Assembly: GCF_057098645.1 (NCBI RefSeq) | Contig: NZ_CM169472.1 | Length of the DNA stretch: 64,000 bases | Direction: 5' to 3' (one strand) | Shown: positions 55,301 to 58,300 of the stretch, one piece after another | Layout of the letters: every line of letters begins with the position of its first letter | Position numbering within the stretch: position 1 is the stretch's first letter | Position numbers: made by a program

Positions 55301-58300
55301 CAACAACATCGCAAGAATTAATGCGATTTTACGCATACTGCTTATTCCTTGATAAAACGGTTACACACGCCAGGACGGCAAAATGGATCCCAAATCGGAA
55401 TAGTCTGGATTTGGAAGGCTCACATTATCACCAAAAGAGTTTTACGCAAGCCTGTCGGAGCAGGGTTTACAAATTTAGCATAAGTAGCGATTTTCAAAAG
55501 TCCGAAAAGCGCATGTAAAACGGATTTATTTCTTATTTCCTAAGATTATGAAACCTCGATAGTAATATGCAAATAAGCAATTAATAATCCCGCTTCTCCT
55601 TTCTGTCCCCTAATATTCTCATCTTCATTCAGCCGGTTTATATCTTCCATGTATTTGTTCTCTCACGACAGATTGCTGCGCCTGGGCGTGTTTTCTTTGC
55701 CCCTTTTGCTTCCTTTACTCGCCAGCGCCGCCACACCGCACATCTCCCTCAGCTACGCCGCCCGCCAGCGGATGCAAAACCGTGCGCGGGTACTCAAACT
55801 GTACCAGGCACATCTGAAAAAACAGGCCAGCTATATTGTGGAAGGCAATGCCGAAAGCAGACGGGCGCTGCGCCAGCACAACCGTGAGCAGATAAAACAG
55901 CACCCGGAGTGGTTTCCTGGCCCGCTGAAATTGAGCGACCGACGCTGGCAGGCGCTGGCGGAAAACAATCACTTTTTAAGCAGCGATCACCTGCATAATA
56001 TTACCGAAGTGGCGATCCACCGCCTGGAGCAGCAGCTTGGCAAGCCTTACGTCTGGGGCGGCACGCGGCCCGATAAAGGCTTCGACTGTAGTGGGTTGGT
56101 TTTTTATGCCTACAACAAGATCCTCGAGGCGAAGCTCCCGCGCACGGCCAATGAGATGTATCACTACTATCGGGCAACAATTGTGGCGAACAACGACCTG
56201 CGCCGGGGAGATTTGCTGTTTTTCCATATCCACAGCCGCGAAATTGCCGATCATATGGGCGTGTATCTGGGCGATGGGCAATTTATCGAGTCGCCACGCA
56301 CCGGGGAAACCATTCGGGTAAGCCAGTTAGCTGAACCTTTCTGGCAGGACCATTTTTTGGGCGCGCGCAGGATTTTGACGGAAGAGACGATTTTGTAAAT
56401 GGGTAATATTGACGAACTGGCAAAAGGCCGGATGCCACACGGCATCCGACTTGTTTACATCTGGGCTGAAAACTCACGTTCTAAGACATCAACAATGAGC
56501 TGGTTTTTTGAAATGGAATGTTGTCTGGCGACGATGGTCAGCCGCGAATCAATGTGATGAGGAACACGAAGCGTCAGGCGTTTTTGCTCTTCTTCTTCAC
56601 GAAAAGGGGCAATACCGTCCTCTTCACAATCCGCCATCCACTCATCCAGCGCGCTTTCGCCCTCACGATATAATGCCTCAATGCTTGTGGCTACAAAGTC
56701 ACAATAACCGTTTACATTGAGGAATTTGCCGCGAAATGCATTGATATCGGCTTCAAATGTCACTGCGGCTGGTTGACCTTTAATTGTGATAATGTTCGAT
56801 GCTTTATTCATAATCTACCCCTACACAGTTAACAAACCACTCCTTAAGACCTGCTACTGCGCCTTTATCCATCACATTCTTTGGATGTGGCTCATGTGTA
56901 CTGAATTTGGTCGTTCCAATCTGAAATTTCCTTCTGGACCCATTGTTATTTTTTATTGTTCCACCCGCCGCTTTAATGAGCGCAACAACATCATCCCATT
57001 TAATTCCAGATTTTGGCGGCTCCGTCATTACATCGTCGAATGTTTTTCTATGGCGGGAGCCTAGCGCGCTGACCTTAATCATACTATCAATCCATGACAT
57101 CATTGTATGGTGTCATCGTAGTATGTTTGCAATGTGACGTCAATCAATGGTGTCAGATGCATGCAAAGCATGGAAAAGAATCCCCATCAACTCACTGCCC
57201 CCATAATCTTCAACTCCAGCTCATCCGGCACTTCGTTATACGACAGCACATGCAGCCCCGGCGCAAACAACCTTGCATAGCGAGCCAGCAAAGGGCGCAG
57301 CTGCGGCGGCACCAGCAGTACCGGGTCTTTCCCCGCCGCTTTCATCTGCTCTTTTACCTGCGGCATCGTGCTCTGGAACTGGTTGAGCATATTCGGGTCG
57401 ACCGGCACGCTGTCGAGCATCACTTTGCCGCCCTGTTGCGCCTGATTCACCACGTTGGTCAGCAGATTTTCCAGCTCATTATTCAGCATATACACCGTAA
57501 GCTCCTGCTTGCGAACGAACGGATGGGTAATGCTGCGCCGCAGCGCCAGGCGTACATCGGCTGCCAGCAGAATGTGATCTTTAGTCACCGTGCTACTGGC
57601 GACCAGCACGGTGGCGATGGTGACGATATCGCGCAGGGAAACGCCTTCGGTCAGCAGCGCACGGTACACTTTCAGCAACTGGCTGTAATTCAGCGCCGCG
57701 CTCAAATCCTCCGCCAGGCGCGGTGCCATCGACGACAGGCGGTTATGCAACTGTGTGATGTCATCATAGTTAAACAAATCAGGAATATAGCTGCGCACAA
57801 TCTTGTTTACATGGGTGGCAATCACGCTGGCGCTGTCGATTACCTGATACCCCATATTCAGCGCCTTCGCTTTCTGCGCGGGCTGGATCCAGGTCACCGG
57901 CATCCCGTACGCCGGGTCGTTCCCCAGCACGCCGTCTATCTCGCCGTAGGTTTCGCTGGAGGGCAGGGCCATCAGTTTATCCGCCGGAATATCCGCTTCA
58001 TCGGCCTTAATGCCGTTGATGAAAATAGCGTACTGGCTGGGCTTGAGGCGGAAATTTTCCCGAATGCGGATCTCCGGCAGCAGCACGCCGTTGCCGTCAG
58101 AAATCACCTGCCTCACGCCGCGAATCCGCTGGGTGAGTGGGTTGCCCTGCGCTTTATCGACCAGCGCTACTAGCTTGTAGCCAAGGCTTAAACTGATAGG
58201 CTCGATAAGCGGAATGGTTTCCCAACTGACCTGTTGCTCGCTGGTTTCAGTGATAGTGCGGGTCAGCGTTTCGAGGCTTTTCTCTTCCGCCTCCGCCGCC

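What the first reader, a model, noticed from the sequence alone, without database searches (positions are those of the whole stretch)
56455..57186. Two-gene HicA/HicB-like toxin-antitoxin module between yafL and the Flag-2 scar, where K-12 carries rayT
Two small minus-strand ORFs with an 8-nt start/stop overlap (translational coupling, toxin-first order). The downstream product has a HicB-type N-terminal domain fused to a ribbon-helix-helix tail (KRLTLRVPHHIDSRLTIVARQHSISKNQLIVDVLERE); the upstream product aligns by eye to HicA. The 83-bp upstream region holds a direct repeat ATGGTGTCA (57107-57115 and 57147-57155) flanking a perfect 8-bp palindrome TGACGTCA (57135-57142), a plausible RHH operator. 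By recollection this slot holds rayT in K-12, so the module looks like a strain-variable insertion.
Basis: partly seen in the sequence, partly recalled or inferred. Interest (0 to 1): 0.6.

Follow-up and report, generated by a model that had tools for sequence, protein, structure and literature searches.

The report
Annotated HicAB toxin-antitoxin pair in E. coli
The two small overlapping genes are a real HicA/HicB toxin-antitoxin module that databases and a 2024 survey already list, so the finding is correct but ordinary, apart from the toxin having arginine where studied HicA toxins have their catalytic histidine.

Summary
The window is E. coli, 100% identical to O145 strain RM9872 over the queried 821 bp. 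The genes are hicB (56455-56811, minus strand, 118 aa) and hicA (56804-57082, minus strand, 92 aa from Met8; the 99-aa ATG is at 57103). They overlap by 8 nt.

Pfam matches HicA_toxin (E 4.8e-7) and HicB (E 4.1e-10). Predicted folds best match solved HicA and HicB structures. RefSeq annotates both genes. [quoted passage not shown]

1479 of 5426 complete E. coli genomes carry the module, and 3561 carry the K-12-type rayT cassette with the same breakpoints.

What I added:
The box pattern recurs in Salmonella, Xenorhabdus and, more degenerately, Providencia.
- Both genes are under purifying selection.
- About 110 genomes carry an allele without the toxin gene.
- This 92-aa HicA belongs to a broad long-form clade. 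It has an invariant Arg where all studied HicA RNases have the catalytic His, plus a clade-specific His63.

No member of this clade appears to have been tested, so toxicity and RNase activity are inferred.

The parts
56804..57082 (-). hicA, a long-form HicA-family toxin gene of 92 aa starting at Met8. An in-frame upstream ATG at 57103 would give 99 aa.
56455..56811 (-). hicB, an antitoxin gene of 118 aa. Residues about 7-65 form the HicB-type N-terminal domain and residues about 78-117 form the C-terminal ribbon-helix-helix.
   Evidence: ORF. PGAP annotation WP_001030484.1. Pfam PF05534 at E 4.1e-10 on residues 60-110. phrog_9151 and an Arc-like repressor family. AF2 model with Foldseek top hits to HicB structures and to RHH repressors.
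56804..56811 (-). 8-nt overlap ATGAATAA between the hicA stop codon and the hicB start codon, suggesting translational coupling.
   Evidence: Read directly from the sequence. The same 8-nt overlap occurs in the Salmonella, Xenorhabdus and Providencia loci.
57138..57143 (-). Candidate -35 hexamer TTGACG, lying inside box 2.
   Evidence: Promoter scan, 9 of 12 matches with a 17-nt spacer. The Salmonella and Xenorhabdus upstream regions show the same TTGACG-in-box arrangement.
57115..57120 (-). Candidate -10 hexamer TACGAT, abutting box 3.
   Evidence: Promoter scan. The Salmonella plasmid has TACAAT at the equivalent place.
57148..57155 (.). Operator box 1, a degenerate form of the consensus (TGACACCA on the coding strand).
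57135..57142 (.). Operator box 2, the perfect palindrome TGACGTCA, overlapping the -35.
57108..57115 (.). Operator box 3 (TGACACCA on the coding strand), immediately downstream of the -10.
57095..57102 (.). Operator box 4 (TGATGTCA on the coding strand). Other E. coli alleles carry the consensus TGACGTCA here.
   Evidence: The substitution at 57099 restores the consensus in strains C7, 97-3250 and O104:H4.
56429..56448 (.). G+C-rich hairpin between the convergent yafL and hicB genes, a likely shared or bidirectional terminator with a REP-like core.
   Evidence: Terminator scan. RNA fold of -20.8 kcal/mol with z -3.2. Only 9-nt matches to the K-12 REP arrays.
56398..57196 (.). The strain-variable cassette of about 799 bp, replaced in K-12 by a 907-bp REP-rayT-REP cassette.
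   Evidence: Homology with K-12 ends at 56397 and resumes at 57197.

Best explanation
This is a chromosomal type II toxin-antitoxin operon of the classical hicAB layout (Gerdes Class 4). It lies on the minus strand at the edge of the Flag-2 island, between yafL and lfhA.

Shown here:
- hicA comes first and overlaps hicB by 8 nt.
- HicA has the HicA fold (alpha-beta-beta-beta-alpha) with an extra N-terminal helix.
- Four 8-bp palindromic boxes (consensus TGACGTCA) are paired 13 bp apart around a sigma-70-like promoter. The pattern recurs in other genera.
- Both genes are under purifying selection.

Inferred:
- One promoter transcribes both genes, and hicB translation is coupled to hicA.
- The HicB N-terminal domain binds HicA and masks its active face.
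- HicB oligomers bind the boxes through their RHH domains, covering the -35 and the transcription start, and so repress the operon.
- Free HicA arrests growth by acting on RNA.

The last step is the weakest. The catalytic His at the start of strand beta2 is an invariant Arg in this clade. If HicA cleaves RNA it must use other residues, and the clade-specific His63 together with His66 and Arg50 are the obvious candidates.
For: - Family signals: Pfam matches. PHROGs full-length matches. RefSeq annotation as HicA and HicB family. The same pair is listed as Class 4 with an RHH in Table S1 of Gerdes 2024, PMC10865869.
- HicB structure: the top Foldseek hits are BpsHicB, YpHicB3, TTHA0281 and EcHicB, with Arc, CopG and AtaR matching the tail.
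- Operon layout: the 8-nt overlap is conserved in three other genera.
- Operator: the box footprint appears across genera. Among E. coli alleles only 1 of 8-9 promoter substitutions falls in a box, and it restores the consensus.
- Selection: hicB has 0 non-synonymous against 4-5 synonymous codon changes, and hicA has 1 against 9-10.
- Published behaviour of RHH-type HicB proteins: autorepression at palindromic operators and masking of the HicA active site (PMC10865869; PMC11594946).
Against: - The catalytic His shown to be essential in Ec, Bps, Yp, Stp, Sm and gonococcal HicA is Arg50 here. It is Arg in 123 of 147 clade representatives and His in only 3. The equivalence is supported by hhalign (E 5.3e-5, probability only 67%), by an independent MAFFT alignment, and by the residue's position at the start of beta2 in the model.
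- I found no experimental study of any member of this clade.
- NCBIfam and PADLOC gave no hits.
- Sequence searches found no solved relative.
- The Foldseek E-values are weak (0.02-0.5), although the top hits are the right families.
- The promoter is only a 9-of-12 consensus match.
- The HicA-HicB contact, DNA binding and toxicity are all untested.
Confidence: 0.8

Rival explanations
1. The pair is a working toxin-antitoxin module, but HicA is not a histidine-dependent RNase. It may cleave RNA with a different catalytic set (His63 and His66 with Arg50), or it may arrest growth by binding RNA or the translation machinery without cleaving.
For: Arg50 occupies the catalytic His position while the essential Gly48 is kept. 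His63 is clade-specific and almost invariant (139 of 147). Strong purifying selection on hicA shows the protein still does something. Class 4 HicAs split into two phylogenetic clusters (PMC10865869).
Against: There are no biochemical data either way. The fold and the pairing with HicB are otherwise canonical. His66 aligns with gonococcal His40, which is dispensable there.
Confidence: 0.35
2. The module is an inactive remnant at a recombination hotspot, kept by hitch-hiking and not by function.
For: It lies in a slot that varies between strains, next to a decayed flagellar island and other variable TA loci. About 110 genomes have lost hicA. The E. coli operator boxes are degenerate compared with the plasmid and prophage copies.
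Against: Both reading frames are intact in all full-length alleles sampled. Non-synonymous changes are 0-1 against 4-10 synonymous changes. The HicB protein is identical in strains whose flanking DNA differs by 4-9%. Deleting the toxin gene while keeping the antitoxin is what one would expect if the toxin were active.
Confidence: 0.05
3. The module's main biological role is anti-phage defence (abortive infection), or stabilising the Flag-2 island or mobile elements, and not stress physiology. This concerns the role, not the mechanism, so it can hold alongside the best explanation.
For: Orthologues lie in a Xenorhabdus prophage lysis region beside other TA pairs, and on an IncFII plasmid next to ccdAB and parA. 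Both proteins match phage families. Gerdes 2024 argues that HicA modules in general act in defence. The module adjoins Flag-2 whether the island is intact or deleted.
Against: There are no PADLOC matches. The immediate neighbours here are not defence genes. There are no phage-challenge data.
Confidence: 0.2

Closest known systems
Class 4 hicAB operons (Gerdes 2024, mBio 15:e03293-23), with RHH-type HicB as in Yersinia pestis HicAB3, Burkholderia pseudomallei HicAB and Streptococcus pneumoniae HicAB
   Same: hicA comes first and is closely coupled to hicB. [quoted passage not shown] There are palindromic operator motifs in its own promoter. [quoted passage not shown] The exact E. coli pair is listed in that paper's Table S1.
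   Different: HicA is 92 aa with an extra N-terminal helix. Arg replaces the catalytic His at the start of beta2, and there is a new invariant His63. HicB is shorter (118 aa against about 135) and its N-terminal domain is not detected by Pfam PF15919.
E. coli K-12 HicAB (hicA b4532, hicB b1438)
   Different: It sits at a different locus (1.51 Mb). HicA is 58 aa with catalytic His23. Its HicB is 138 aa, has no RHH Pfam match here, and is reported to carry an HTH domain. The genes are separated by 45 nt and do not overlap. The profile-profile relationship between the two HicA families is weak (E 5e-5).
Long-form G-S-R / H-x-P-H-P HicA clade (phrog_8887; 751 representatives at 50% identity)
   Same: The window protein is a full-length member. 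Partners are HicB proteins with an RHH tail. The clade is found on plasmids of Piscirickettsia, Sinorhizobium, Deinococcus and others.
   Different: There is nothing substantive. The enterobacterial branch has G-S-R-R-K-F, whereas most of the clade has G-S-R-V.
RHH repressors that bind short palindromic boxes, such as MetJ, Arc and CopG
   Same: The HicB tail matches Arc, CopG and AtaR structurally. The boxes are 8-bp palindromes arranged in pairs, much like the 8-bp met boxes (AGACGTCT, from my own knowledge).
   Different: The pairs are spaced 13 bp start to start and lie 40 bp apart. Binding and stoichiometry are untested.

Membership tests
HicA toxin family (Pfam PF07927 / COG1724) | Significant match to the family sequence profile | tested here: met
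   PF07927 at E 4.8e-7 and 30.2 bits, residues 36-84 of the 99-aa ORF. Precomputed PF07927 hits on most homologues. NCBIfam has no model hit.
HicA toxin family (Pfam PF07927 / COG1724) | [quoted passage not shown] | tested here: met
HicA toxin family (Pfam PF07927 / COG1724) | Conserved Gly two residues before the catalytic residue (Gly22 in BpsHicA and gonococcal HicA) | tested here: met
   Gly48 is present in 143 of 147 clade representatives and aligns with the G of G-S-H.
HicA toxin family (Pfam PF07927 / COG1724) | Catalytic histidine at the start of strand beta2 (His23 Ec, His24 Bps/Sm/Ng, His28 Yp, His36 Stp) | tested here: not met
   The position is Arg50. It is Arg in 123 of 147 representatives and His in 3. 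The equivalence comes from hhalign, MAFFT and the model, where beta2 starts at residue 50. The requirement for His is documented.
HicA toxin family (Pfam PF07927 / COG1724) | Growth arrest through ribosome-independent RNA cleavage | not testable with these tools
   This needs expression and RNase assays. I found no published test of this clade.
HicB antitoxin family | N-terminal HicA-neutralising domain with a partial RNase H-like fold | tested here: met
   AF2 model at pLDDT 81.6: four strands and a helix in residues 7-65. The top Foldseek hits are HicB structures 6g26, 4p7d, 4p78, 2dsy, 6u0i and 6hpb, with probability 0.85-1.0 but weak E-values of 0.02-0.5. phrog_9151 'HicB-like antitoxin' at 4e-13 over residues 6-114. 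There is no Pfam PF15919 hit.
HicB antitoxin family | C-terminal DNA-binding domain (RHH or HTH) | tested here: met
   PF05534 at E 4.1e-10, residues 60-110. Arc-like repressor phrog_582 at 6e-5. Structural matches to Arc, CopG and AtaR. Table S1 of Gerdes 2024 records an RHH for this protein.
HicB antitoxin family | Binds palindromic operators in its own promoter and represses it | tested here: inconclusive
   Four TGACGTCA-type boxes are conserved in position across genera and spared by substitutions. Binding itself was not tested.
Class 4 hicAB operon (Gerdes 2024) | Bicistronic operon with hicA upstream of hicB, and HicB carrying a C-terminal RHH | tested here: met
   Gene order and 8-nt overlap. 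RHH as in the rows above. The pair UIV62394.1 / UIV62393.1 in Table S1 is this module with one residue different in each protein.
Type II TA module, using the criteria of Makarova et al. 2009 (PMC2701414) | A small two-gene operon that is patchy and mobile in distribution and also occurs on plasmids and phages | tested here: met
   Present in 27% of E. coli genomes. Found on a Salmonella IncFII plasmid, in a Xenorhabdus prophage region and on the Providencia chromosome. 157 plasmid records hold relatives. The criteria are quoted.

The most novel reading that the evidence does not exclude
The long-form HicA clade to which this toxin belongs is a mechanistically distinct and so far untested class of HicA toxins. 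It comprises 751 representatives at 50% identity and about a third of the HicAs I could count in the published census. The canonical catalytic histidine has been replaced by arginine, and a new histidine (His63, with His66) has taken over catalysis or changed the target.
Probability: 0.35. Interest if true: 0.45.

Novelty: already known. Interest (0 to 1): 0.2.

Why it matters
As a finding it matters little. It is one more chromosomal TA module that automated annotation and a published census already capture. It does have three modest uses.

1. It is a convenient E. coli entry point for testing whether HicA toxins without the canonical histidine are active and how they work. This affects how a large share of annotated 'HicA family toxins' should be read.
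2. The conserved TGACGTCA box layout gives a ready operator model for the RHH-type HicB.
3. The yafL-lfhA slot, with its hicAB allele, rayT allele and toxin-less allele, is a tidy natural case of cassette replacement and toxin loss next to the Flag-2 island.

Tried and rejected
- NCBIfam and PADLOC scans of both proteins found nothing.
- phmmer of both proteins against PDB, and a profile of the enterobacterial HicA subfamily against PDB, gave only chance hits. K-12 HicA also finds only itself, so these negatives say little.
- Literature searches found no paper on this locus or on a histidine-less HicA. I searched hicAB with yafL, HicA with Flag-2, the RefSeq accessions, 'catalytic histidine' with arginine, and COG4226.
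- I considered the 99-aa and 74-aa toxin products and rejected both in favour of 92 aa. Homologue lengths agree on 92 aa. Residues 8-25 of the 99-aa ORF (1-18 of the 92-aa protein) are conserved and largely form a confidently modelled helix.
- I considered the plasmid label given to this pair in PLSDB and in the Gerdes table. The 404-kb record carries chromosomal neighbours, so I do not treat the module as plasmid-borne in E. coli.
- I considered whether the hairpin at 56429-56448 is a true REP element left by a rayT-type cassette. It shares only 9-nt matches with the K-12 REPs, so this stays unresolved.

Full report
**What is there**

The window is E. coli. Bases 56380-57200 are 100% identical to O145 strain RM9872. 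On the minus strand, ORF 56455-56811 encodes 118 aa and ORF 56804-57103 encodes 99 aa. They share the 8 nt ATGAATAA, which holds the upstream stop and the downstream start.

In shuffles of the upstream region, the 9-nt repeat has p about 0.009, and its 21-nt extension (17/21) was never matched in 1000 shuffles. An 8-bp palindrome on its own is unremarkable, at p about 0.08.

**Identity of the proteins**

- Pfam gives HicA_toxin PF07927 (E 4.8e-7, residues 36-84 of the 99-aa ORF) for the upstream product. It gives HicB PF05534 (E 4.1e-10, residues 60-110) for the downstream one.
- PHROGs matches both over their full length: a toxin family at 5e-20 and a HicB-like antitoxin family at 4e-13. An Arc-like repressor family covers the HicB tail.
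- RefSeq (PGAP) already names them HicA family toxin (WP_000598757.1, 92 aa) and HicB family antitoxin (WP_001030484.1).
- Nearly all homologues of the toxin are 92 aa and begin at the residue equivalent to Met8. The 92-aa form is therefore the likely product.

**Structures**

The HicB model (pLDDT 81.6) has four strands and a long helix in residues 7-65, then two helices in 85-117. Its best Foldseek matches are the solved HicB proteins, while Arc, CopG and AtaR match the tail.

**Already catalogued**

Table S1 of Gerdes 2024 (PMC10865869) lists an E. coli pair as Class 4 with an RHH. It comprises UIV62394.1 (92 aa, one residue different) and UIV62393.1 (118 aa, one residue different). Class 4 is the classical layout: hicA first and HicB with a C-terminal RHH. 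I found no experimental paper on this locus.

**The slot**

- K-12 has rayT between yafL and lfhA.
- Homology between the two alleles ends at the yafL stop codon (window 56397) and resumes at 57197, ten bases inside the 3' end of lfhA. A 799-bp cassette here therefore replaces a 907-bp REP-rayT-REP cassette.
- Among 5426 complete E. coli genomes, 1479 carry the hicAB sequence (1369 at near full length) and 3561 carry the K-12-type cassette.
- The module is found next to the Flag-2 deletion scar, as here. It is also found next to an intact Flag-2 flhA in strain 97-3250 and in a 404-kb record labelled as a plasmid that carries chromosomal neighbours.

**Operator**

Upstream of hicA in a Salmonella IncFII plasmid and a Xenorhabdus prophage region there are four TGACGTCA boxes, all perfect in Salmonella and three of four perfect in Xenorhabdus. 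They form two pairs with 13 bp start to start. One pair overlaps a TTGACG -35, and the other lies between the -10 and the start codon.

E. coli has the same layout with degenerate boxes: TGACACCA and TGACGTCA at -73 and -60, then TGACACCA and TGATGTCA at -33 and -20. Providencia shows only two boxes that match the search pattern.

Among E. coli alleles that differ at 8-9 of 104 promoter positions, only one change falls in a box, and it restores TGACGTCA. The candidate promoter is TTGACG, a 17-nt spacer, then TACGAT. Binding by HicB is inferred from what RHH-type HicB proteins do elsewhere.

**Selection and decay**

Against three E. coli alleles, hicB has 4-5 synonymous and no non-synonymous codon changes. 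hicA has 9-10 synonymous changes and one non-synonymous change, at Ala39. Both genes are constrained.

About 110 genomes match only the hicB half. In strain AR_0372, hicA is deleted in frame. The first codons of hicA are fused to hicB in a 131-aa ORF, and only the proximal box pair remains.

**The one unusual point**

An exhaustive profile search found 751 representative relatives. Most are 84-92 aa and match from about residue 6, so the N-terminal extension is a clade trait.

In 147 of them the motif is G48-S49-R50, with Arg in 123 and His in 3. It is followed by H63-x-P65-H66-P67. Three lines of evidence place Arg50 opposite the catalytic His of canonical HicA:

- hhalign against the K-12 HicA family aligns Arg50 with His23 and His66 with His38 (E 5.3e-5, probability 67%).
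- An independent alignment with canonical Class 4 HicAs from Table S1 puts G-S-R in register with G-S-H.
- In the model, beta2 begins at residue 50. The catalytic His of studied HicAs sits at the start of beta2, two residues after an essential Gly.

That His has been shown to be needed in the Ec, Bps, Yp, Stp, Sm and gonococcal toxins.

The stored part of Table S1 holds about 49 G-S-R sequences and at least 109 G-S-H sequences. The paper notes that Class 4 splits into two clusters but does not discuss catalytic residues. The 2024 review does not mention an Arg class either.

So the protein belongs to the HicA sequence and fold family, but one functional hallmark is not met. RNase activity for this clade is an inference, not a finding.

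**Verdict**

The module is already annotated and catalogued, so its novelty is low. The histidine-to-arginine clade is the only aspect that might repay experiments.

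Noticed in passing
window 55477-55648 (dpaA-yafL intergenic region): The dinJ-yafQ toxin-antitoxin operon that K-12 carries between dpaA and yafL is absent here. Homology with K-12 covers only the first 140 nt after dpaA. Other strains combine dinJ-yafQ with hicAB.
   Followed up: partly
window 60776-60783 (dinB-yafP junction): The yafN-yafO toxin-antitoxin pair of the K-12 dinB operon is precisely absent, and dinB runs straight into yafP. 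Within about 6 kb this strain differs from K-12 at three TA loci.
   Followed up: partly
L003:5076-5471 (E. coli AR_0372, NZ_CP027134.1): This is a toxin-less allele. hicA is deleted in frame, its first codons are fused to hicB (131-aa ORF), and one operator pair is retained. About 110 of 5426 genomes match only the hicB half. PGAP annotates this hicB as starting at an ATA codon.
   Followed up: partly
L010 (NZ_AP023206.1, 'plasmid' pMTY18781-1, 404 kb): A record labelled as a plasmid carries fadE-lpcA-yafJ-dpaA-yafQ-dinJ-yafL-hicBA followed by an intact Flag-2 gene set (flhA, flhB, fliR, fliQ, fliP). This is chromosomal context, so the 'plasmid' label on this hicAB may be misleading.
   Followed up: no
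window 56180-56398 (3' end of yafL): The yafL 3' end differs by 8-9% from other hicAB-bearing strains, while the adjacent hicB differs by about 1%. The pattern is mosaic and suggests recombination at the cassette edge.
   Followed up: no
window 57158-57165: A second perfect 8-bp palindrome, TGCATGCA, lies just upstream of box 1. It is disrupted by a 1-nt deletion in other E. coli alleles, so it is probably not functional.
   Followed up: partly
window 40856-40876: The only other match in the window to TGACGTCA-N5-TGACGTCA, with 3 mismatches. It is probably chance.
   Followed up: no
window about 61549-63300: In the identical RM9872 record, the region downstream of yafP holds a truncated rtcB-family pseudogene followed by an IS110-like ISEc20 transposase (coordinates converted from L001).
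   Followed up: no
L006:1073-3625 (Xenorhabdus bovienii contig): Three TA-like pairs lie side by side next to phage lysis genes: a canonical short hicAB, a RelE-like gene with an HTH partner, and the long-form hicAB.
   Followed up: no
Table S1 of PMC10865869 and the alignment: A second long HicA type (for example Acinetobacter QQT87967 and Nitrospira ALA60311) has an N-terminal extension but keeps G-S-H and lacks the P-H-P motif. The extension and the His-to-Arg change are therefore independent traits.
   Followed up: partly
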